Positions 28,430 to 39,726 of a stretch of DNA of 64,000 bases are shown here, piece after piece (position 1 is the stretch's first letter; every line of letters starts with the position of its first letter). Source of the stretch: Candidatus Altiarchaeota archaeon (GTDB lineage Archaea > Altiarchaeota > Altiarchaeia > IMC4 > SCGC-AAA252-I15); the NCBI GenBank assembly GCA_043800705.1, contig JAZDMS010000003.1, forward strand, positions 1 through 64,000. The letters run 5' to 3'. The notes beneath the pieces were generated by a model. It was given only the letters and a program-made list of their open reading frames with translations. It was not told the DNA's origin and made no database searches. A program made the position numbers and the translations under genes.

Positions 28430-29761
28430 TTATCCTCTCACCCTCCAATGTCCGCCCTTGTCGGGGCCGACCCTCTTCAAGAGTTTTTTTTCTTTGAGTT
28501 TTTTTATGTTCTTGTATACTGCGACTTCGCTGATATCCAATTTTTTAGAGAGTTCCTCCGTCGTTATGCGGCCGTTTTGAGCGATTAATCTGATTATCTT
28601 AAGTTCATTTTCTCCTAACTTTTCTCCTAACTTTTCTCCTAACTTTCCTCCGGCCCTGTCTGCTTTAGCCATGCTTTTTCGCTTGAAAACTGTGATGAAC
28701 TGCGTTCCTATCTCTCTAAAATCTGCCGTAGGTTCCTTTGAGAGGATAAGGCTTATTCCTCTGCCCCATTTTTCTATGAGGTGAATCCTATGAAGCAACT
28801 CTGCAATGAGCTCGTTTCTCCTCTCTGATACCCTATCCCTCCTTATCGATTTGATTGTAAGTCCCCCATATAACAATCCGGGGCTTCTGATTTCAAGGCG
28901 ATCTCTGAATACTGCTATGTTCACAGAGTCGTATTTCCAGTAGTCTCTGTGACAGAATGCGTTGATTATCGCTTCCCTGACGGCCTCCTTATCAATCTCT
29001 GGAACATCTATGCGGGCAAGGCCTTCTATCCTCATCCCAACGTTAATTTTATCCATTATGTATTTCTGTGCCTGTTCGATTAGGGTGAGCAGGTCGCCTT
29101 CGTAGTCTTTCATATCCAACGGGAGTGATGAGTCATTGGTTGCGAAGACTGCGCACCGTAACCTTGCATTTGGGAAGAATTTCTGCGGCTTCTTCGCAAA
29201 CATCATCACCGCGGAATTGAGTAACTTTCCATCTCTTATGATGTCTAACTTTGTAAGGGAATTTCTGGTCGAATCATATCTGAGACCTGCTTGTTTGAGG
29301 AAGCTTCTCAGCTTCTTAGGGCTTATATCCTCTACTTTAGCCTTCTCGCACACTGAAGTGTCCCATGCCAGTTTGTACCTGTTCTTCTTCAATATCATGT
29401 TTTCGAGTTCTTTGGCGCTCAGCTGTCTGTCTTCATCCCCAACACGCATATATGACCGCCCGTGGGCATAGTAGGGGATATTGACACCTTTGAATTCGAC
29501 ATGGATGCAGTCTCTTCCACCCAGTTCAGTCTTGCTGATTTTGGGGTAAATCTTAGGTTCGATATTTTCAGAGATAGCCCGTGAGACGTCTCTCATACTC
29601 CGCTCGCCGACTGCCTGCCCAATAGCGGTTCCGTCATTTCTAACGCCGAAGAATAACTCACCCCTATGGTGCTTGTTCAGCATTGCCACAACCGAAATCA
29701 CAGCCTCTTTCAGCTCTGACGTCGACTTCTTCAATTCAAGCGTCTCGGACTCCATTAGCAT
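28430..29761 (-). CDS. Schlafen/AlbA_2 + HATPase-like + HTH protein (often annotated RecG-like or transcriptional regulator)
   Basis: ESETLELK, AMLN..GELFFGV.NDG, REAIINAFCHRDY, IEKWGRG, RVGPDKGGHW; lower GC than its neighbours. Confidence 0.9.
   Translation of the reverse strand: MLMESETLELKKSTSELKEAVISVVAMLNKHHRGELFFGVRNDGTAIGQAVGERSMRDVSRAISENIEPKIYPKISKTELGGRDCIHVEFKGVNIPYYAHGRSYMRVGDEDRQLSAKELENMILKKNRYKLAWDTSVCEKAKVEDISPKKLRSFLKQAGLRYDSTRNSLTKLDIIRDGKLLNSAVMMFAKKPQKFFPNARLRCAVFATNDSSLPLDMKDYEGDLLTLIEQAQKYIMDKINVGMRIEGLARIDVPEIDKEAVREAIINAFCHRDYWKYDSVNIAVFRDRLEIRSPGLLYGGLTIKSIRRDRVSERRNELIAELLHRIHLIEKWGRGISLILSKEPTADFREIGTQFITVFKRKSMAKADRAGGKLGEKLGEKLGENELKIIRLIAQNGRITTEELSKKLDISEVAVYKNIKKLKEKKLLKRVGPDKGGHWRVRG
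28608..28651. repeat. 12-bp coding tandem repeat (GEKL units)
   Basis: TTTTCTCCTAAC x3 plus a partial copy. Confidence 0.85.
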
Positions 29762-29817
29762 GATACAATATCACCTCCACACGCAATATAATCGGAAGAG
29801 AGCCCGGGAAAAGTAAA

Positions 29818-30797
29818 CTATGCAGGTTTATGTTTTGCCATCTCGTATCTGTCCCTTATCGTCCTTCTCGACTCTTCCAGATTTTCGCCCACCGCAAGGT
29901 TAGACCGTGCACCGTCCAGCACCTTCGAAGCGGCCCCATTGAATTGGTCCATCGTCAGGCTCGTCTCCACGAGCTTCATGAGCCTGTCATGGGCTCGCAC
30001 AGGAGGTAATCTTCATTTTTCCTCATGTGGTCGTAGACACGGTAACAGTTGGTGAGGACTTCGCTGAACCTGTCATTACACCTTTCGCGCTCCTGTCCTC
30101 TGATGTCCCTGAAGCAATTGACCACAAAGCTGTTCTTTGCGATCCTCTCAGCAAGCCTCTGCCAATCCCCGCGTTTCGCACCTTCAGGCTCGAAGCAGCA
30201 TAAATGGGCCAGCACTTCCCCCAACGCCCTGTCGGATCCCAGACGCGCGTTGATGAAAAGATCCCTCCTGTGCTTTCTCTCATGCCTGATTGCCTCATAA
30301 TCCAGCAGGTCGTTGACTATGATCACTCCCGCATATGCGAGCCTGCCCTGGTTCGGCGCTATGACCAATCCCGCACCCTCCAAACCATTGAGTTTTCCGG
30401 CGACATAGGTGAAATCAGGGCTTTTATACGCCCTTGTCCGGGTTCCTATCCTCATCCTGTCAGATTCGTCAAGCGGCTCAAAATCTCCGATAATCCTGCT
30501 CTCCCTGAAGTATACGGCTCCGTATTCTTCGCTGAACCTCGCATGCTCGAAGTCTGACGGATGAAAAAGGCCCCGATTGCCGGGTTCTATTCCGGCGTCC
30601 TCATTCAATCCCTCCGCAAGGAATGTCATTGCCTTCTGAGCCTGTGAGGCATCCTTCGAATTGAGGCCAGCTAATACGGAGTCGACTTCACGAATCCTCC
30701 CCTCCCTTTGCCTAACAGCCTTCAGGGTCGGCACATCGGCGATGTTCGCCTTCAGGGACTCCAGCTGCCTCAGGGAACCGTCCTTGACGACCTCCAT
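29818..30797 (-). pseudogene. hypothetical HExxH-motif protein, apparently split by a frameshift near 30000
   Basis: ORF 29976-30797 (RHERKH...GEVLAH) overlaps ORF 29818-30000, which continues in another frame. Confidence 0.45.
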
Positions 30798-30905
30798 ATG
30801 TAGAAACCTGGAATCTCCGGGTAAAAACCGAAGACGCCTCTGTTTTCGGCGTTTACCGAAAGGAAACCTGGACGTTTTTATTCGGAACCGCGACTTATCT
30901 GTACC

Positions 30906-31697
30906 ATGACAGAAGAAACCAAGTCTTGCGGATGCTCAACGAAGGTGTACCACGTATTTTTCGCGGTCTTGATGATCGCAGCGGTGGGAATACTGTGCAT
31001 GAACGCTAACAGGGAAGCAGTCCCGAAAATAGTGCAGATCGACTCGATGGGGCTGCAGAAGGACACAATCACCGTATCCGGCAATGCCCAGATCACGGTC
31101 GCCCCAGACGAGGCCATAGCCTACATAAGCGTCGTCACCGACAACGCCACTGCGAAAGACAGCCAGGAAAACAACCGGGTCGTCTCTGACGTAGTCATGT
31201 CCTCGCTGAAGGGCATCGGCATCAGCCCCGCAGACATAGAGACAGACTCGTACTCCCTCACCAAACTGGAGGAATACGACCAGGAATCCGGAAAATACCT
31301 AGAGCGCGGATTCAGGCTCACCAACACGATCAAAGTGACCACACGCGACATCAAGAATGTCGGGGGCATAGTCGATGCCGCAGTCGGCGCCGGAGCCAAC
31401 GGCGTCGACAGCGTGACGTTCCAGCTGACTAAGGAATCGGAGAAAACCGTCCGCGACCAGGCGATGGTGAAGGCCACACAGGCGGCCATGTCCAAGGCCC
31501 AGAGCCTCGCGAAGACCGCGGGAGTGGGAGTCGGCAAGGCGGTCAGCATCCAGGAGCAGAACTTCTACTACGCGCCGTACGAGTTCAACGTCAGGAACAC
31601 CATGGTCGCAGGGGACGCGAAGCTCGCCCCGACCGTGATATCCCCCCAGAAGGTGGAAGTCACATCAAGCGTGCAGCTGATATACGCCATCAAATAA
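30906..31697 (+). CDS. SIMPL/DUF541 domain protein
   Basis: TITVSGNAQITVAPD, GAGANGVDSVTF, AQSLAK, N-terminal TM helix. Confidence 0.92.
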   Translation: MTEETKSCGCSTKVYHVFFAVLMIAAVGILCMNANREAVPKIVQIDSMGLQKDTITVSGNAQITVAPDEAIAYISVVTDNATAKDSQENNRVVSDVVMSSLKGIGISPADIETDSYSLTKLEEYDQESGKYLERGFRLTNTIKVTTRDIKNVGGIVDAAVGAGANGVDSVTFQLTKESEKTVRDQAMVKATQAAMSKAQSLAKTAGVGVGKAVSIQEQNFYYAPYEFNVRNTMVAGDAKLAPTVISPQKVEVTSSVQLIYAIK

Positions 31698-31852
31698 CCG
31701 GCTCTGACAGTTGCCGCATCCGGAATGATGCGGCCTACGTTTTTATCCGGCCGGCTCCCCATTGTTAACATGGCGGTGAGGGAGCCTTTGCCGGTCATTC
31801 AGCGATTCTCTGTCGGATTGAGAGATTTTTAAGTCGTATTTCGGTGTATAAT

Positions 31853-32071
31853 ATGATGCGAAAGTACAAGGTTGTTTTGCAGCCGGATGAAGAAGGCGGG
31901 TATAATGTCGTGGTAGTGGGTCTTCCAGGCTGCTTTAGTCAGGGTGAAACGAAGAAGGAGGCGCTAGCGAATGCCCGCGAAGCCATAGAATGCCACCTTG
32001 CCGCATTGCAGGATTCGGGAGTAAACATCTCCAAAATACCGAAGGCCTGTTTGGGCGTTGTCTCAGTCTAA
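31853..32071 (+). CDS. hicB: HicB-family antitoxin
   Basis: EEGGY.V...LPGCFSQGET..EAL.NAREAI. Confidence 0.92.
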   Translation: MMRKYKVVLQPDEEGGYNVVVVGLPGCFSQGETKKEALANAREAIECHLAALQDSGVNISKIPKACLGVVSV

Positions 32072-32292
32072 TGAAACTTCCAGTTGTCTCTGGCGAATCG
32101 TTAATTAAATTCCTGACGCATCACGGTTTTATCGTTGTGCGCCAGCATGGAAGTCACGTCACACTCAAACGTGTCAATATGCCACATACGCATGTGACGG
32201 TGCCGCTGCACAATACACTCAAGAAGGGAACCTTATTGAACATACTCAATCAGGCTGAAATAGACAAAACAGAATTCACCAGTAAAATTTGA
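32071..32292 (+). CDS. hicA: HicA-family toxin
   Basis: GFIVVRQHGSH, VTVPLH..LKKGTL..IL; TAATG overlap with hicB. Confidence 0.92.
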   Translation: MKLPVVSGESLIKFLTHHGFIVVRQHGSHVTLKRVNMPHTHVTVPLHNTLKKGTLLNILNQAEIDKTEFTSKI

Positions 32293-32428
32293 CAAAAAAG
32301 GTTTCCTCCCCCTCGGAGCTCCCACATCTTCTCCTAGGCACGTATCCTAGAGCCGAAATTCACCCCAAGATAAAAGTGGTTAGTTTATATGCAAAATCCT
32401 TAAGACAATAAGGTATGCGGTGGGAATC

Positions 32429-32917
32429 ATGAAATGTCCATTGTGTAAGGCAAATCTGAATGAAAAAGACCTTTATAATAATGTCCAAAAAATTGGGGGA
32501 ATCAATGAATTAAAAAAATTAAGCACTCAAACCCAACCCGCAGATGAAGATGAGGTACTTCTAAAAGTAAAAGCAGCATCATCTTTCGCTTGGGTTTGTC
32601 CAAAATGTGATTCTATCATCACAATATCCTCTGATAGCGGTATGGGGGGCATGCCTGGTCCAGATATTCCTACTGGAGAAATTTCTGGATTAAACAAATG
32701 GGAGTACCTCCACTTTTTAGGCACCTTTCCGAATGTGGAGGGTATAAGGAAGGATAGACCAGATTATGAAGATAATGGGGACACACAATATTTAGACCAG
32801 TTAGGTGATGAGGGTTGGGAGTTAGCCTCAGTAGTGCCATTCACTAATCAGGGAATTGTTCTCAGACTGGGTTACTTCCTCAAGAGAAAAAAACTACCAA
32901 ATTTAGATTCACCTTGA
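32429..32917 (+). CDS. hypothetical protein: zinc ribbon plus DUF4177-like domain
   Basis: CPLC and CPKC; KWEY...LDQLGDEGWELASV; low GC. Confidence 0.7.
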   Translation: MKCPLCKANLNEKDLYNNVQKIGGINELKKLSTQTQPADEDEVLLKVKAASSFAWVCPKCDSIITISSDSGMGGMPGPDIPTGEISGLNKWEYLHFLGTFPNVEGIRKDRPDYEDNGDTQYLDQLGDEGWELASVVPFTNQGIVLRLGYFLKRKKLPNLDSP

Positions 32918-33056
32918 AAGGAAGTATTTCGTCGTAACTGTTTAGTTTTCTGTAATGGCTTGATGAGGGCTTTCTAATGCATTTTATGGCATTATTCCCA
33001 AAAGGTATTGGTGAGGATTGGTTTGCCTTTGGCCAAAATTTTTGATAATAAGGTAG

Positions 33057-33932
33057 TCATTTTGAACCCAATGTACTAACAACCCATCTTTTGAAGGTCG
33101 TTTCTATACTGTCTTCTAATTTTGTCCCTTCAACTTTGAATATCATTTGGTGGGTTGTTTTGTCACTTCTGTTGGTTTTGGGTTCAGCTATCATATCTGC
33201 CTTTATGATAATCCTATAAGACTCGTTTGAGACGTATGGAGGGCACATTGCCTCCACCATTATGAGTTCTTTTGGGGGAATAATTTCATCTCCGGTTGGA
33301 GACAAAATTCTTGGATTTTGGCATTCCCGGTTTTCTTTCGAGATACTGATATTCTTAAAGGAAAGATAAGAGTCCGGAATATTTCGCCAACTCATATTAT
33401 CTGGAGAATAACCTAAATAAACAACATTTATGTGCATCGATTGTGCCAAATTTCCATCCGGATTATAACCCAGTAAGCCTGTTGAATTATAAAAAAAGTT
33501 AGATAATCCGGCTTTGAATGAACCATTTTTTTCGTAATACTCAAAAACATTCGGCTGATCCTCAGCCATCGATCCAGGTAAATAATAGCTCCCCGATCCA
33601 TTCAGTGCCCAGTCGAATCTAGGTGCTGGATCATAGACCGGAATCGAATTCCAATATTGTACCATATCCGGGATGTAGAAGAATAGACATATACAAAAAA
33701 ATTGAACCACAGCTAGTGTCCGACCGCAGATGAAAAATTTAGATTTCTCCTCAGTTTTTTCCTTTTTTCGAGGCCTGAAATAGAGCGCCGGTAGGCCCAA
33801 ACCTAGGATGAAGTTAAATGGAAAATAATCAGCAAAAGCATGTGTTATTATAGAAACAACTATTGACCCAGATATAATCTCATAGAGGTGCAGGCCATAT
33901 TCTTTAGAATTCCACCTATCAATAACTTCCAT
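33057..33932 (-). CDS. hypothetical membrane protein (transposon passenger)
   Basis: 291-aa AT-rich ORF with N-terminal TM helices. Confidence 0.7.
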   Translation of the reverse strand: MEVIDRWNSKEYGLHLYEIISGSIVVSIITHAFADYFPFNFILGLGLPALYFRPRKKEKTEEKSKFFICGRTLAVVQFFCICLFFYIPDMVQYWNSIPVYDPAPRFDWALNGSGSYYLPGSMAEDQPNVFEYYEKNGSFKAGLSNFFYNSTGLLGYNPDGNLAQSMHINVVYLGYSPDNMSWRNIPDSYLSFKNISISKENRECQNPRILSPTGDEIIPPKELIMVEAMCPPYVSNESYRIIIKADMIAEPKTNRSDKTTHQMIFKVEGTKLEDSIETTFKRWVVSTLGSK

Positions 33933-34005
33933 CCTATACTTTATTGGTCCACATAAAGATAAAACTGGGTTCGTGAGTGCCTACTTCAGAAAAGTCACCA
34001 GCAGA

Positions 34006-35034
34006 TTATCTTCTTTGTTCTCTTGGTCTTGTTCTCGTGACTGTATGTAGTTCCGGTTGAGGATTCCTCCCCGGTTCTGGCTCTTCTAAAGCGACCTGTG
34101 CTTCTAGGACGTCTGGGTCAGGTCGTTTTGGCGCAGTTTCGTCTTCTGGCTTTTTCTCCTTAGATGTTTGAGGTGATTCTGTGAAGGTACTTCCAGACCC
34201 TACCCTCTGCTCTCCCCTGAAGCTGACATATCTCGACAGTTTTTCGACCCGCTCAGTCTGCTGCGCTCCGTTTAAAATATCCCCTAGAACTGACACGTCC
34301 ATGTCGGGGTGGTTTCCGAGCCTAATTAACGCAGACTCTATGGCGTGGTCCGGGTTCCTGCCAGCTCTTTGTTCGATTGACGCAATATCAAAGAGATGAC
34401 TTACCGCCTTTTTTCCGTTTGTTTCATTGAGGTATCCCAGGGAGTGGTTTATTTGACTGCGTCCATGTGGGCTTACGGTGGAGGCAAGAAGTGCGGGTTC
34501 TCTCCATGCAGCAAGTTGGCGCAAGTTGCCGTCGAGACTATCTCCCTTTGCAAGTTCGCTGAACCTTCCTTTTTCGTCAAATTTATAGAGAGTTGAATCT
34601 TTTGGCGGTCTTCCATGCTGTCGGAGGTATGAGTCTAGACTCGTCACCCCTTCAGACGTTTTTAGGATTAGCTGTTCTTCCGGGATGCGCTCCATCCAGT
34701 CCTGGGGGACGGTTGCACGGTCAACATATTTGTCCCTGGGCATGTCACTTATAGCGGCGATATTCCTTTCCATCTGCTGCCTTGTCTCGTCAGTCAGCTT
34801 AGGGATCGGCTTCGGTAACTTTATAGCATCAGGCATAGTTGTCCTTTGATGTATCTCTTCAACAGGCATACCATATGATAATCTCTCAGTCATATGTTCT
34901 CCAATGGAGCGTACGACTCGTTTTCCAAGCCACATAAGTTCTCTGCCAAGTTGCCTTAGGGTTATCGGTTCAGGCTCTAGGTCTGCTGCTGTGAAAGTCC
35001 CTTGTCCCGGCTGAATGGTTCTCTCTCGTGGCAT
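34006..35034 (-). CDS. hypothetical protein (transposon passenger)
   Basis: 342-aa ATG ORF. Confidence 0.7.
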   Translation of the reverse strand: MPRERTIQPGQGTFTAADLEPEPITLRQLGRELMWLGKRVVRSIGEHMTERLSYGMPVEEIHQRTTMPDAIKLPKPIPKLTDETRQQMERNIAAISDMPRDKYVDRATVPQDWMERIPEEQLILKTSEGVTSLDSYLRQHGRPPKDSTLYKFDEKGRFSELAKGDSLDGNLRQLAAWREPALLASTVSPHGRSQINHSLGYLNETNGKKAVSHLFDIASIEQRAGRNPDHAIESALIRLGNHPDMDVSVLGDILNGAQQTERVEKLSRYVSFRGEQRVGSGSTFTESPQTSKEKKPEDETAPKRPDPDVLEAQVALEEPEPGRNPQPELHTVTRTRPREQRR

Positions 35035-35041
35035 GCTCTCC

Positions 35042-35338
35042 CTACAGTTTGTTTTTCTCTAATATTTCCTTGATGATATTTGAGTATAGGATCCGGTTTC
35101 TTTCGTCGATATCTGCATCTGCTATAGCTATCAGTGGCTTTTTCTGGGTTTCATCCCATACCAGCGCCAGGTGCTCAAGTTTGTTCGCCCCTAAGATGGC
35201 GTTGAGCCGTTGGTCTGATTCTACTGAGGATATCAAATCTTTTAATGAATCAAGCCTTAAGGCGGTAACTGGCTTCGCATTTATCTCCTTGTGCCTTTCA
35301 TGAAGCCGGCGACTCTGCTCTTCAAGCTCCGAGCTCAT
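35042..35338 (-). CDS. hypothetical protein (transposon passenger)
   Basis: ORF ending 7 bp upstream of the 342-aa gene; start set at MSSELEE. Confidence 0.55.
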   Translation of the reverse strand: MSSELEEQSRRLHERHKEINAKPVTALRLDSLKDLISSVESDQRLNAILGANKLEHLALVWDETQKKPLIAIADADIDERNRILYSNIIKEILEKNKL

Positions 35339-35392
35339 AATAACTACTCCGAATGATGAGGATATAAATACGCAAGTCAATAAGGAACTGTC

Positions 35393-35749
35393 ATGAGCCT
35401 AGACAAACGATTTATTGATGCATTTTCTCCGACACGATCCAGATTGATGGTCTTTTTCGTTTTGATTGTGGGATTTTTTTGGATAGTAGCCATGGCATAT
35501 CTAGGCGGAGGCAAGGTAGTCTCTTCTCGACATGCTTTGGTAAACTTTGTATATGAATATTTTGGAGAAACAGCACCGTTCAAGGGGTGGTCGCCTGCTA
35601 ACCCATTCGACCCTGCCGTATATGCAGCTCGACTACCCTCGATCATCTTCTTAATTATTTTCATCTACATTTGCGCCTGCTTCTTTGAAAGCGTGTTCAG
35701 ACGGATGTTTCAAAAAGAGAAGAGAAAGGTTGGATCAAACGAAAGTTAG
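35393..35749 (+). CDS. small membrane protein (transposon passenger)
   Basis: 118-aa ORF with two TM helices. Confidence 0.6.
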   Translation: MSLDKRFIDAFSPTRSRLMVFFVLIVGFFWIVAMAYLGGGKVVSSRHALVNFVYEYFGETAPFKGWSPANPFDPAVYAARLPSIIFLIIFIYICACFFESVFRRMFQKEKRKVGSNES

Positions 35750-35819
35750 GCTCCCTCCAATAATCAAAAAGAGCGGACTATAGCTACTCGCTATTTTCAT
35801 TCATCCTAGAGTCTCTTTC

Positions 35820-36755
35820 TTATTTATTTAAAATATCTTTTTTGATTTTTTGTTGGGCTTGATATTTTTCTGCCTGTTTCTTAATGCAATCGTCGCAATA
35901 GACGTAAGGTGGATTAATTATTTTGTTGCAATCACGGCAATTTGTTTTCTGTTCTTTTTTCCTCAGATATCCTACAAAATCCTCATGTATGCGCTCACGA
36001 GCTTGTGATAAGAGATCCTCAATTTTACATTCTAACCCGTTGGAATCGCGTAATTCCTTCAAGTGCTGTATTAAGTGATACATCCTCCATTGATACAAAT
36101 GTTCGTGGCATATGTTCAAAGAAAGTTCTAATTCTTTTAAGTGTTTCTCATCAACTTCAACATCTAATTTATCTAGGATTTTTCTATCTCTTTCATCAAA
36201 ATCTGAAATTCTTTTTTCAAATATTTTCTGCCATTTATCCAAATCTTCTTTTAATAATGGTTTTTTCCAGCGATTAATGTCCTTCTCATTTGTGCAATAA
36301 TCTGCAATATATCTAATGGCATTTTTTTGATCGATTATCATATCCTCTAAAACATCTTTTATTTCAAAATCTATTGGATTTCTCCATCTCCACAATGGCG
36401 CACCACATCTCATACAATGCCTACGACCATAATAGGTACTGTTTATAATTCCGCAAATTTTACATGTTCTTTTATAGTAGAAATCTTCTCCCCAAAGATA
36501 TTTTCCATATTTTTTATAAATTTTAAACAAAAAACCCTCAATTCTATAAAGAGGATATGGGAGAGAAGAATATCTTATTTCGCAAGGGAGGCATCTAGGT
36601 CCTGTATGATCTTTTGATATTTCATCTTTATTTTCATTTAAAAAATCATTGTATTTTTTGATTGGTTTTGAACAATACTTACAGGTTTTAATTTCATCCT
36701 GTTTTGGTTTTTCTCTATCTACGAGTTCGCTCATTAGATTGATATGGTTAATCAT
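35820..36755 (-). CDS. Cys-rich multi-zinc-ribbon hypothetical protein (transposon passenger)
   Basis: Six CxxC pairs (CKYC, CLPC, CKIC, CMRC, CRDC, CDDC); very AT-rich. Confidence 0.7.
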   Translation of the reverse strand: MINHINLMSELVDREKPKQDEIKTCKYCSKPIKKYNDFLNENKDEISKDHTGPRCLPCEIRYSSLPYPLYRIEGFLFKIYKKYGKYLWGEDFYYKRTCKICGIINSTYYGRRHCMRCGAPLWRWRNPIDFEIKDVLEDMIIDQKNAIRYIADYCTNEKDINRWKKPLLKEDLDKWQKIFEKRISDFDERDRKILDKLDVEVDEKHLKELELSLNICHEHLYQWRMYHLIQHLKELRDSNGLECKIEDLLSQARERIHEDFVGYLRKKEQKTNCRDCNKIINPPYVYCDDCIKKQAEKYQAQQKIKKDILNK

Positions 36756-36768
36756 TTATTATTAATAT

Positions 36769-38091
36769 GTGAATCCCTCATCGGAGGGTGGTGGCTGCAA
36801 GGAATGCGAGAAACTGCGCGCCAAATTGAAGGTTCTCCGCAAAGAGAACCGCATATTAAAAGAGCGTCTAGCATCCATTGAGGCATATTCTGTCAGTTTA
36901 CGGTGGTTTAAGCCTTCTGTAAAGCATCCTAAGAAGCGAAAGAAACCAGGCAGACATGAAGGTCATGCTGGCGCTGGCAGGCAAAGACCAGAGCGTGTGG
37001 ACGAAATAATCCCTGTCACTCTTGACCGTTGCCCGGACTGTGGAAACGGATTAAAAGAACCATATAGCATTCGCAGCCGCTATGTATGGGATGTGCCCCC
37101 ACCCACAGCAGTCAAAGCCACCGAATACCGGATACACAGGTATTGGTGTCGATGCTGCAGACGCAGCATAGAAGCCCAACCAGAACAACTGCCGTATTTC
37201 CGCCTAGGAATGGGCGCATGGGAGTGGGCATATGTGATGCATCACCAACTCAACGTCAGCTTCGACAAAATCAGCTGGTGGATGCGCGAAGTATGGCAAC
37301 TACCCATAACCAAAGGTGCGTTGACCCAAGGATTAGACTCCTTGGGAAAGCGTTTAACGCCAGCATATGACAGTATGATGGTGAACCTTAAAACAAGCCG
37401 ATACAGTCACACAGATGAAACCAGTTGTAGGGTTAATGGCGCGAACTGGTGGACTTGGATATTCCGAACACAAAACCAAATAATCTACCACACAGAAGGC
37501 AGCCGAGGCGGCGAAGTACCAAAGAAGATACTAGGGGAAGAATATAATGGCGTAATCGTTACCGATGACTATCCTGGGTATCGCCGCTTAAAATGCCAGA
37601 AACAAGCCTGTTGGGTACACTTGATACGAAAAGCAAGGGATTTGTGTGAGATGAAGAAACCACACCCAGAACATAGACGAGTACATCGTCACCTTCAAAG
37701 GATCTACCATGACATCAAAGAATATCAGGAGAAGCCCCCTCCACCAGATGAAAGGATGAATCATTTCCTCTTATTTGAGCAGAGACTCAAACGAGTCATA
37801 CGGAAAAAGTATAAGACAAAAGGGTCAAAAACGATAGCGGAACGGATACGAAAGAGACTGCCAGAATATCTCACTTGCATACTAGAGCCAGACATACCAC
37901 CTCAAAACAACCCCGCTGAACAGGCACTTCGGCATCAGGTGATTCACCGAAAAAACAGCACAATACGAGGCGAGACATCCGTGAAAACACATGACATACT
38001 CAACACCCTACTAGCCACGCAACTACAAACCACACCAAACCCTCTGGAAGCTACACACAAAATCTTAACACAACTCACTACAACGAACTAA
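36769..38091 (+). CDS. IS66-family DDE transposase (single-ORF type)
   Basis: Leucine zipper, KPGRHEGH, CPDCG zinc finger, HTDETS, TDDYPGY, QACWVHLIR, NNPAEQALR; stop codon lies inside the right TIR. Confidence 0.93.
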   Translation: MNPSSEGGGCKECEKLRAKLKVLRKENRILKERLASIEAYSVSLRWFKPSVKHPKKRKKPGRHEGHAGAGRQRPERVDEIIPVTLDRCPDCGNGLKEPYSIRSRYVWDVPPPTAVKATEYRIHRYWCRCCRRSIEAQPEQLPYFRLGMGAWEWAYVMHHQLNVSFDKISWWMREVWQLPITKGALTQGLDSLGKRLTPAYDSMMVNLKTSRYSHTDETSCRVNGANWWTWIFRTQNQIIYHTEGSRGGEVPKKILGEEYNGVIVTDDYPGYRRLKCQKQACWVHLIRKARDLCEMKKPHPEHRRVHRHLQRIYHDIKEYQEKPPPPDERMNHFLLFEQRLKRVIRKKYKTKGSKTIAERIRKRLPEYLTCILEPDIPPQNNPAEQALRHQVIHRKNSTIRGETSVKTHDILNTLLATQLQTTPNPLEATHKILTQLTTTN

Positions 38092-38273
38092 ACAGTTACA
38101 TTTCGTCGCTCACTCAAATGAGGGTTCCCTCTCCCTCGGGACTCCCCACCTCCCCTAAAACATGTGTTATGGCATAAAAAGAAAAAGCGCTCCCTCACCT
38201 CAACCTCGCTAATATCTCAATCCCTATTAATTTCTTAAGTTTAATTTAATAAGACCTTACTCAATTCTTTATT

Positions 38274-38765
38274 GTGAACAAAAATCTTGCATTAGTAATT
38301 GTCTTAATACTGATTGTGGCTGCGATAGTTTCTTATATCGTTTACAATCCAGTTAAATCCAGATATGTTATGGCTAAGAATCCCACCTTAGTAATCTCCT
38401 TAATCCTTATTGGAGCAGCCTCTTTTTTATTCGTCATCGCTTACGCACTTTACAACGAAAATAAATTCTACTTTATTAGGAACAAACATGTTGTAGTAGT
38501 AATTGTTTTATTAATTTCTCTAGTTGTGGTCATTTCCTACATTATTTATCACCAACATAAATTAGAAAAAGAACAGCAAGAACTACAAAAACAAATTAAC
38601 TATAATGCTTGGGAGACTGAAAATGTTAAATACAATCAGCGACAGGAAAGTTGCATAAATGCAAAGAAAGAGTGTATTCAAAACTGTCGGTACGATGATT
38701 TAAGCGAGGGTATGTGCATACAAGGTTGTAATAGCATTTATTCCCAGCTTTCAACTCCCTGTTGA
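38274..38765 (+). CDS. hypothetical membrane protein with Cys-rich C-terminus
   Basis: Three similar TM segments; AT-rich. Confidence 0.6.
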   Translation: MNKNLALVIVLILIVAAIVSYIVYNPVKSRYVMAKNPTLVISLILIGAASFLFVIAYALYNENKFYFIRNKHVVVVIVLLISLVVVISYIIYHQHKLEKEQQELQKQINYNAWETENVKYNQRQESCINAKKECIQNCRYDDLSEGMCIQGCNSIYSQLSTPC

Positions 38766-38934
38766 AGATTCCCCCTTCTCCTGCTTTCTATAAAAAAGCC
38801 CCCCATAAACACATTCCAAAAATATTAAACGGCGGTTTTTTATATCCGATAATGCGCAGAGATAGTTTTGCGCTTTATGGACAAATGCTCCCGTATTTGG
38901 GCTCGGGGTATTTATCCCCTGAAAATCGACCAAG

Positions 38935-39726
38935 TCAGTAGCTTCCCAGGTCCTTGAAATACGTCGTCCTCTCATTGATCCTGGCATGGAGCTGTTCGCG
39001 TTCCTGAGCCTTCATGGAGTTGTTCTCGTAGTCGAGGTAGAAGACGTATTCTCCGAGTTTCTTCCTCGACGGCCTGCTTTCTATCTTGGTGAGGTTGATG
39101 CTTTCGTCTGCGAACAGTTTCATGATCGAAAACAGCGCCCCCGGCTCGTCCTTGGTGGAGAATATGAGTGAGGTCTTCGGCCCCTCCCTGGCGCTCTTCG
39201 AAAGCGCTATGAACCTGGTCTGGCTGTCTTGGTCCTGTATGTTCTCTGCCAGGACATGTAGGCCGTATCTGAGGCCGGCCTCCCTGAAGCCGATCGCGGC
39301 GGCGTCGGCCCTGTCGGATGCCTCGATGATGGCTTCGGCGGTACTTGAGGTGTTGGTCTTCTTCGCCTTCGGGAAGTTTTTGTCAAGGTATTCCTTGCAT
39401 TGGCCGAAGACGTGCGGGTGGGATACGATGACCTTGACGTCCTCCCTTTTTACGCCCTTCTTCGCCATCATGTGGAGCCTTATGTCAAGCGTCGCCTCGG
39501 CCACGATCTTCAGGTCGTATTTCAGGAGGGACTCCATAGTCTTGTCGACTGAGCCTTCGAGCGAGTTCTCCAATGCGGCGACGCCGTCTCCCCTGCCGTC
39601 CGCGACGTATTCGAAGACGTCCCCGACGTCGCTGAGGTATTCTATCCTCGCCAAGGGATACATCCTCTTCGCGGCCTGCTCGCTGAACGTGCCTGCAGGC
39701 CCCAGTACGGCGACGGATTCGGTCAT
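38935..39726 (-). CDS. pheA: prephenate dehydratase
   Basis: LGPAGTFSE, ENSLEGSV, TRF, LTKIESRP. Confidence 0.96.
   Translation of the reverse strand: MTESVAVLGPAGTFSEQAAKRMYPLARIEYLSDVGDVFEYVADGRGDGVAALENSLEGSVDKTMESLLKYDLKIVAEATLDIRLHMMAKKGVKREDVKVIVSHPHVFGQCKEYLDKNFPKAKKTNTSSTAEAIIEASDRADAAAIGFREAGLRYGLHVLAENIQDQDSQTRFIALSKSAREGPKTSLIFSTKDEPGALFSIMKLFADESINLTKIESRPSRKKLGEYVFYLDYENNSMKAQEREQLHARINERTTYFKDLGSY

What the first reader, a model, noticed from the sequence alone, without database searches (positions are those of the whole stretch)
32926..38107. 5.17-kb IS66-family transposon carrying five passenger genes
Seen: a perfect 14-bp inverted repeat GTAACTGTTTAGTT (20 of 24 matches when extended) at 32934 and ending at 38099, flanked by the 8-bp direct repeat ATTTCGTC. 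Established: IS66 elements begin with GTAA and make 8-bp target duplications. The transposase occupies only the last 1.3 kb and has no left TIR next to it. The remaining 3.8 kb holds five orphan ORFs of mixed base composition. Inference: the whole block moved as one unit, a cargo-carrying IS66 in an archaeon. The left end could alternatively be the 3' end of a second decayed IS66 in inverted orientation, because both ends read ...AAC TAA ACAGTTAC.
Basis: partly seen in the sequence, partly recalled or inferred. Interest (0 to 1): 0.72.

Follow-up and report, generated by a model that had tools for sequence, protein, structure and literature searches.

The report
Archaeal IS66 transposon carrying five genes
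A 5.2-kb stretch in an uncultured archaeon has the two ends, the insertion footprint and the unbroken enzyme gene of an IS66 jumping gene but also holds five extra genes, so it likely jumped as one package; bacteria have such elements, but this one carries a gene pair that likely comes from its own archaeal lineage.

Summary
Observation confirmed. A 5,166-bp block (32934-38099) has a perfect 14-bp inverted repeat, an exact 8-bp flanking duplication and an intact single-ORF IS66 (ISBst12-type) transposase. A profile built only from relatives' ends picks three sites in the genome, including both ends; nothing inside scores. Five of five close relatives with a readable left end have it 64-66 bp upstream of the transposase. 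Here about 40 bp of that left end are replaced by 3.8 kb of cargo.

The best reading is a passenger-carrying IS66 (tIS66 type, known in Pseudomonas) that moved as one unit into a 10.5-kb variable island. Movement is inferred: no second copy, empty allele or reads were found. There is no transposase remnant at the left end, so the 'second decayed IS66' alternative has little support.

One correction: not all five passengers are orphans. The 98-aa one belongs to an uncatalogued family found in 43 of 61 genomes of the phylum. Its extra copies sit directly upstream of mostly unrelated ORFs, as it does here with the 342-aa passenger. At least part of the cargo is therefore likely host-lineage DNA.

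The parts
32926..32933 (.). Left copy of the 8-bp target-site duplication (ATTTCGTC)
32934..32955 (+). Left terminal inverted repeat: 14-bp perfect core, family-like to about position 22-24, then neither left-type nor right-type sequence
33057..33932 (-). Passenger 1, 291 aa. Hydrophobic N-terminus, then a probably beta-rich domain; likely a membrane-anchored surface protein (inferred). No relative found.
34006..35034 (-). Passenger 2, 342 aa. Starts 7 bp after the stop of passenger 3; charged, proline-rich tail. No relative found.
35042..35338 (-). Passenger 3, 98 aa from the ATG (112 aa from an upstream TTG). Member of an uncatalogued small alpha/beta protein family of the host order; its extra copies precede variable ORFs.
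35393..35749 (+). Passenger 4, 118 aa, two hydrophobic segments; likely a membrane protein. No credible relative.
35820..36755 (-). Passenger 5, 311 aa (304 aa from Met8). Several CxxC pairs (likely zinc ribbons), GC 0.31, divergent from the transposase. One weak relative (E 3.4e-4).
36769..38091 (+). IS66 transposase, 440 aa, uninterrupted. zf-IS66 and DDE_Tnp_IS66 domains; D216, D266 and E384 present; stop codon lies inside the right TIR.
38078..38099 (-). Right terminal inverted repeat
38100..38107 (.). Right copy of the 8-bp target-site duplication
28430..38934 (.). Context, not part of the element: a variable island of about 10.5 kb between the Hef-like helicase gene and pheA, into which the element is inserted
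   Evidence: the two genes are adjacent in G001, G003, G004

Best explanation
This is a single-transposase IS66 element (ISBst12 type) whose inner left end, about 40 bp long in relatives, is replaced by 3.8 kb of passenger DNA, and its own transposase likely moved the whole 5,166-bp block into this island in one step, leaving the 8-bp duplication. Shown: both ends are family TIRs; one exact duplication flanks them; there is one intact transposase, no inner TIR, and relatives are compact. Inferred: the cargo was joined in earlier by recombination that kept the outer 22-24 bp of the left end and the transposase start codon, which is the one upstream position that leaves the element mobile. The cargo is a mosaic. 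It includes a small-protein-plus-variable-partner gene pair typical of this archaeal family, so the element likely shuttles accessory chromosomal genes within the lineage.
For: A 24-bp profile from 9 ends of foreign relatives scores only 3 of 4,005,290 genome positions above 17: both ends of this block (27.6, 29.2) and the left end of a compact sister element on contig C3 (31.6). The next score is 16.9 and the best inside the element is 7.5. The transposase scores 221.5 bits on NF033517 against a cutoff of 180. In 5 of 5 close relatives with a readable left end, the TIR is 64-66 bp upstream of the start codon. The 4 with both ends are 1398-1455 bp, and L007 has an 8-bp duplication. A profile of the inner left end finds the C3 sister (E 2.2e-6) but nothing in the element (best E 2.6), so that part was replaced, not split. 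No transposase remnant lies at the left end: best z 3.7 among 96 comparisons, against 13-35 for the true right end versus close homologues. The exact duplication, perfect 14-bp IR and open ORF suggest a recent jump. My inference: a random later insertion into a 1.4-kb IS would hit the 40-bp window that spares both TIR and ORF only about 3% of the time, whereas an element that moved after capture must look like this. The 98-aa passenger groups (SH-aLRT 99, quick tree) with three copies from the same genus and family, each followed within 4-6 bp by a 477-676-aa ORF. IS66 elements with passengers exist: 7 of 25 Pseudomonas entries (PMC12888890, section read).
Against: Only one copy is known. All five passengers are singleton clusters on one contig among about 15 billion proteins, and the cargo DNA matched none of 40 relatives. 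No allele with the island but without the element was found: the neighbouring orphan gene is in 0 of 60 other genomes. None of 15 related elements with both ends readable exceeds 2,013 bp, so cargo is not shown to recur in this clade, though most contigs are under 5 kb. The left end is no closer to relatives' left ends than to right ends beyond the core (z -0.05 to 1.65 against -0.84 to 1.72). The transposase has lost its normal upstream region, so its expression is unknown. The 98-aa passenger sits on a long branch with unusual composition.
Confidence: 0.7

Rival explanations
1. A compact IS66 landed first and made the duplication. The 3.8 kb then entered its left end in place, so the block never moved as a whole.
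For: The duplication dates only the outer ends. The site is an insertion hot spot: a 10.5-kb island here and two different genes at the same place in G002. Only one copy exists.
Against: No integrase, second transposase or IS66-type inner end lies in the cargo, and no bounding repeat was seen among the repeats listed. The inner left end is lost rather than split. The insertion would have to hit a 40-bp window by chance while TIR, duplication and ORF stay pristine (inference).
Confidence: 0.15
2. It is a collapsed composite transposon. The left end is the last 22-28 bp of a second IS66, possibly its right end in inverted orientation; both inner ends were deleted and the block moved as a unit.
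For: The two ends share 14 of 14 first bases, against 11-12 of 14 in the four compact relatives (read). Positions 23-29 are slightly more right-like. Read outwards the left end gives ...ITEN-stop, like ...TTEN-stop in the transposase of L027. A compact sister IS66 exists in the genome.
Against: No transposase-like protein or DNA is found beyond the terminus. The first 24 bp match two true left ends (20 of 24) as well as the element's own right end (20 of 24). It needs two separate deletions.
Confidence: 0.12
3. It is an assembly artefact or a chance pairing of a lone IS66 with an unrelated look-alike 3.8 kb upstream.
For: No reads could be examined (one search listed no run), and the genome is a 43-contig assembly.
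Against: The chance of the 14-mer is 7e-5 and of the 8-mer 2e-5. The left end scores as a family TIR under an independent profile. A 14-bp repeat is too short to cause a mis-join (own knowledge of assembly).
Confidence: 0.03

Closest known systems
ISBst12 group of IS66, e.g. ISDge4 of Deinococcus geothermalis (PMC12898284, passages read)
   Same: One ORF of about 440-450 aa, 14-bp TIR starting GTAACT/GTGACT, 8-bp direct repeat.
   Different: This element is 5,166 bp with five passengers between the left TIR and the transposase; no passengers are described for ISDge4 in the passages read.
tIS66, passenger-carrying IS66, e.g. ISPa75 with fosZ, ISPsp18, ISPa120, ISPa128, ISPsy43 (PMC12888890, section 12 read)
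   Same: Passenger genes between one pair of IS66 TIRs with a single transposase set; capture of chromosomal genes from the host lineage is proposed there too.
   Different: ISPa75 has tnpA-tnpB-tnpC, is 2,996 bp and carries one passenger downstream of the transposase. Here there is a single ORF, five passengers upstream, 5.2 kb and an archaeal host.
Transposable modules (TMos) of IS1380-family elements (PMC3281130, passages read); ISEcp1-type one-ended capture (recalled)
   Same: One transposase mobilises neighbouring chromosomal DNA as a unit.
   Different: In those the IS stays whole and (recalled) the far end is a surrogate look-alike. Here the IS's own left end is missing beside the transposase and the far end is a true family TIR.
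Compact single-ORF IS66 of the same archaeal order (L007, L018, L027, L029, G000:C3)
   Same: Transposases 58-69% identical for the four foreign loci, same TIR family, 7-8-bp duplication where readable.
   Different: They are 1.40-1.46 kb with no cargo and a conserved 64-66-bp left end.

Membership tests
IS66 family, ISBst12 group (transposase and ends) | IS66 DDE transposase with zinc finger | tested here: met
   PF03050 E 7.9e-37 and PF13005 E 2e-7; NF033517 221.5 bits, cutoff 180; D216, D266, E384 conserved (their role as the triad is recalled)
IS66 family, ISBst12 group (transposase and ends) | Single transposition ORF, no TnpA or TnpB | tested here: met
   None of the five other ORFs matches an IS66 accessory family in Pfam, NCBIfam or PHROGs; definition from PMC12898284
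IS66 family, ISBst12 group (transposase and ends) | TIRs beginning GTAA and an 8-bp target duplication | tested here: met
   comparable values in PMC12898284 and PMC3281130
Simple (compact) ISBst12-type insertion sequence | Nothing but the transposase between the TIRs; left TIR adjacent to the ORF | tested here: not met
   3,835 bp between left terminus and start codon, against 64-66 bp in 5 of 5 relatives; no inner TIR
tIS66 (passenger-carrying IS66) | Passenger genes inside one IS66 TIR pair bounded by one duplication | tested here: met
   term from PMC12888890
tIS66 (passenger-carrying IS66) | The unit is seen at more than one site or shown to move | tested here: inconclusive
   Single copy in the genome; passengers are singletons; no run listed
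Composite (compound) transposon | Two IS copies, whole or remnant, flanking the cargo | tested here: not met
   No second transposase or remnant; no inner TIRs. A 22-28-bp terminal remnant cannot be told from a left TIR.
TMo / ISEcp1-type one-ended unit | Intact IS plus a surrogate far end | tested here: not met
   The far end scores 27.6 as a family TIR against a background maximum of 16.9; the IS's own left end is absent
Integron-like cassette array (as source of the cargo) | attC-type site after each ORF, same orientation | tested here: inconclusive
   My attC scan found nothing in the island but also nothing genome-wide, so it had no positive control; ORF orientations are mixed
Type III-like secretion chaperone (98-aa passenger) | CesT/SycE fold and binding to the adjacent gene's product | tested here: inconclusive
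   Model pLDDT 84.7; Foldseek best E 0.74, with SpcU, SycE and ExsC rows only at E 1.5-2.1 and TM 0.27; VIA best Z 5.0 (rmsd 3.6, 65 aligned), within background; binding not tested

The most novel reading that the evidence does not exclude
The element is a vehicle for an undescribed two-gene system of this archaeal order. A small conserved protein (one core copy beside DUF167 in most genomes, plus lineage-specific paralogues) acts as a dedicated chaperone or neutralising partner for whichever hypervariable protein is encoded right behind it: HExxH, SLOG, AAA, glycine-rich hydrophobic or orphan proteins. This would resemble chaperone-effector or immunity-toxin pairs, and IS66 cargo elements would move such pairs between genomes.
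Probability: 0.2. Interest if true: 0.7.

Novelty: new variant of a known kind. Interest (0 to 1): 0.38.

Why it matters
It is a clean, base-resolved case of an archaeal IS66 that has become a gene-carrying transposon, with compact relatives showing which part of the left end was given up. It suggests that about 22-24 bp of left end is enough for this transposase, which is testable. It also shows one route by which orphan-rich islands are filled in these uncultured archaea. The element type is known from bacteria, so the surprise is moderate. The larger lead is the passenger pair: it exposes an order-wide small-protein family with no Pfam, NCBIfam or PDB match, whose paralogues are tightly coupled to mostly unrelated variable genes.

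Tried and rejected
Sequencing runs: none was listed for 31500-39500, so the empty site, circles and junction reads could not be examined.

Other copies or other cargo:
- The transposase profile found 18 metagenome loci, 2 genome loci and 0 viral loci.
- A degenerate TIR pattern matched 4 of 61 genomes, all at elements already known; an exact 21-bp left end matched 0 viral contigs.
- Cargo DNA against phages and plasmids gave no match.
- The right end of the G026 element could not be read.

Passenger annotation:
- No significant Pfam, NCBIfam, PHROGs or PADLOC hit.
- The 342-aa protein found only itself. Its single-sequence model was poor (pLDDT 48) and was not fold-searched; its Atlas hits had TM by query below 0.3.
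- The 291-aa protein found only itself. Atlas hits were beta-sandwich-like, with TM by query at most 0.44, a lead only.
- The 311-aa protein was in 0 of 60 other genomes, with one weak representative.
- The one hit of the 118-aa protein (G033, E 5.4e-5) has two stops and lies antisense to another ORF, so I rejected it.
- The 98-aa family has no credible Pfam, NCBIfam, PHROGs or PDB sequence match and no fold match above background; this does not show the fold is new.
- A viral-contig scan with the family alignment could not be run.

Other checks: no tRNA in the window; no credible Rfam hit; the attC scan was uninformative; the sigma-70 scan was at chance level and does not cover archaeal promoters.

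Literature: searches for IS66 + passenger genes + archaea (6 papers listed), IS66 + circular intermediate + composite transposon, Altiarchaeota + insertion sequence + transposase (1 paper) and Altiarchaeota + effector + chaperone + DPANN (0) showed no description of this element or gene pair. The tIS66 search was swamped by unrelated papers. Two papers were not held. ISfinder was not available, and supplements were not opened.
Full report
1. Observation. The 14-mer GTAACTGTTTAGTT lies at 32934-32947 and, inverted, at 38086-38099; ATTTCGTC flanks both ends exactly. The ends agree at 20 of 24 positions. Given island composition, the 8-bp repeat has p = 2.2e-5 and a 14-mer partner within 10 kb has p = 7e-5. 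The ORF at 36769-38091 is an uninterrupted 440-aa IS66 transposase (PF03050, PF13005; NF033517 above cutoff). D216, D266 and E384 are conserved across 14 aligned homologues; their role as the DDE triad is recalled. No TnpA or TnpB is present, which fits the single-ORF ISBst12 group as described for ISDge4 (PMC12898284, passages). The host is an uncultured archaeon. The two genome-contig hits are titled 'uncultured archaeon' and 'Candidatus Altiarchaeota archaeon', and unchecked earlier notes on this genome say Altiarchaeota.

2. The left end is real. A 24-bp weight matrix built from nine ends of five foreign relatives, none from this genome, was run over 4,005,290 positions. Three sites stand apart: 31.6 (contig C3), 29.2 (right end) and 27.6 (left end). 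The next is 16.9 and the best inside the element is 7.5. The C3 site is the left end and first 23 codons of a compact sister IS66 cut by the contig end. So the left terminus is a family TIR, not a chance look-alike, and there is no TIR beside the transposase.

3. What relatives look like. In 5 of 5 close relatives with a readable left end (L007, L018, L027, L029, G000:C3) the TIR starts 64-66 bp before the start codon; a sixth (L002) is cut by its contig end. The four with both ends measure 1455, 1416, 1407 and 1398 bp. L007 has an 8-bp and L018 a 7-bp duplication; L027 and L029 show none. Among 21 distant loci (23-32% identity) both ends could be read in 11, spanning 1,008-2,013 bp; the longest has one extra 128-aa ORF. 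No other cargo-carrying member was found, but most of these contigs are under 5 kb, which biases against long elements.

4. How the cargo sits. Beyond the 14-bp core, true left ends resemble each other (z 5-10) and true right ends resemble each other (z 3-13). The window's left end resembles neither (z -0.05 to 1.65 and -0.84 to 1.72); family likeness stops at about position 22-24. A profile of the inner left end (positions 24-62) finds the C3 sister at E 2.2e-6 but nothing in the element. About 40 bp of normal left end are therefore replaced, not split, by 3.8 kb. The best z was 3.7 among 96 comparisons, likely from the TIR codons, against 13-35 for the true right end versus close homologues. 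The terminal 22-28 bp could still derive from a right end: the two ends share 14 of 14 first bases against 11-12 in relatives, and positions 23-29 are slightly right-like. But the first 24 bp match two genuine left ends as well as the own right end, 20 of 24 each.

5. Did the block move as one? The duplication proves only that the two outer ends were inserted together. Against a later in-place insertion: the cargo has no recombinase and no IS66-type inner end; duplication, TIR core and ORF are pristine; and the cargo occupies the one small upstream window that spares both the TIR and the start codon. That position is expected if the element had to stay mobile after capture and has about a 3% chance otherwise (my inference). 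For it: only one copy is known. All five passengers are singleton clusters on this contig, the cargo DNA matched none of 40 relatives, and no sequencing run was listed. I put the unit reading at 0.70, later insertion at 0.15, collapsed composite at 0.12 and artefact at 0.03.

6. Context. Of 5 relatives fetched at pheA, three (G001, G003, G004) have the Hef-like helicase gene directly next to pheA. G002 has two other genes there, and G019 is not syntenic on its short contig. So 28430-38934 is a variable island of about 10.5 kb, holding an AlbA/RecG-like gene, a HicAB pair and orphans, and the element is nested in it between two orphan genes. The left neighbour is in 0 of 60 other genomes, so no empty allele is available. 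Removing the element interrupts no ORF.

7. Passengers. Four have no usable relatives. From sequence alone, two are likely membrane proteins, one likely has zinc ribbons and one is soluble with a charged tail. The 98-aa protein differs. A single-sequence search hit 7 of 20 same-family genomes. An 11-sequence profile hit 43 of 61 genomes of the phylum (own included), 13 of 13 high-quality ones, and 0 of 12 outside the order. I examined 52 distinct copies out of the loci fetched, not all 86 matches. Of these, 22 form a core clade, 16 of them directly upstream of a DUF167-like gene. The other 30 are paralogues from families f1 and f3. Seventeen of them are followed within 53 bp by an ORF of 91-757 aa and 13 by ORFs of 23-77 aa (automatic calls, not curated). 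Among paralogue partners over 60 aa only one pair is homologous at E < 1e-3. Partners include two HExxH proteins, a SLOG-domain protein, an AAA protein and glycine-rich hydrophobic proteins. The window's copy groups (SH-aLRT 99, quick tree, long branch) with three copies from the same genus and family, each 4-6 bp upstream of a 477-676-aa ORF starting Met-Pro, as the 342-aa passenger does at 7 bp. This two-gene unit is therefore likely native to the host lineage, while GC of 0.31-0.49 shows that the cargo is a mosaic. The family folds confidently as a small alpha/beta domain with an N-terminal helix (pLDDT 84.7) but has no family or fold match. A cognate chaperone or immunity role is my guess from gene coupling only; binding is untested.

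8. Comparison with what is known. IS66 elements with passengers are described as tIS66: 7 of 25 Pseudomonas entries, such as ISPa75, which has tnpA-tnpB-tnpC and fosZ downstream (PMC12888890, passages and section 12). One-copy mobilisation of adjacent DNA is known for IS1380-type TMos (PMC3281130, passages), but the anatomy differs. A 2026 survey reports Altiarchaeota as IS-rich; 'passenger' and 'ISBst12' do not occur in its main text (PMC13343696, passages; supplements not opened and may list this element). The Gourbeyre 2010 IS66 review was seen only as a reference entry. Unchecked notes from this scan describe IS66-ended cargo blocks in other archaea, so the phenomenon is probably not rare.

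9. Verdict. A real, well-bounded element; a new variant of a known kind (single-ORF IS66, five upstream passengers, archaeal host); unit movement likely but unproven. Interest 0.38, mainly for the passenger pair and its family.

Noticed in passing
window 35042-35338 and homologues, e.g. G000:C14:72396-72710, C35:198389-198700, C39:1685-2041; L062-L115: An uncatalogued family of about 80-110 aa in 43 of 61 genomes of the phylum. A core copy usually precedes DUF167; paralogues are tightly coupled to mostly unrelated downstream ORFs. The three other copies in this genome precede glycine-rich proteins of 101-116 aa; several elsewhere precede similar 33-37-aa glycine-rich peptides. No core copy was found in this 87.6%-complete genome.
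   Followed up: partly
G000:C3:35746-35884: Left end and first 23 codons of a compact sister IS66, cut by the contig end.
   Followed up: yes
window 32293-32340 and 38110-38157; L125:1430-1490 (G003:C25): An imperfect pyrimidine-rich repeat of 45-60 bp with small hairpins. The two window copies each lie about 120 bp upstream of an orphan gene, one of them within about 10 bp of the insertion site; a third copy is in a same-genus genome. Single-sequence nhmmer did not link the two window copies, so its significance is uncertain.
   Followed up: partly
window 28430-38934: A variable island of about 10.5 kb between the Hef-like helicase gene and pheA, absent in three same-genus genomes; G002 has two other genes at the same spot.
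   Followed up: yes
window 32955-33047 (+): A 30-codon open frame without a start begins right after the left TIR and ends in a stop; it may be the tail of a gene cut when the cargo was joined.
   Followed up: no
window 38280-38527: Three copies of a 44-nt repeat inside the 163-aa membrane protein gene, matching repeated hydrophobic segments.
   Followed up: no
L022:851-2863 (G028): A 2,013-bp IS66-like element with a perfect 20-bp IR, a 6-bp duplication and an extra 128-aa ORF upstream of the transposase.
   Followed up: partly
L027:92-968: Two overlapping ORFs that look like a frameshifted IS5-type transposase (judged by eye) directly upstream of a compact IS66.
   Followed up: no
G000:C14:1853-12664: A perfect IR of 12 bp or more with a 7-bp flanking direct repeat spanning 10.8 kb; may be chance.
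   Followed up: no
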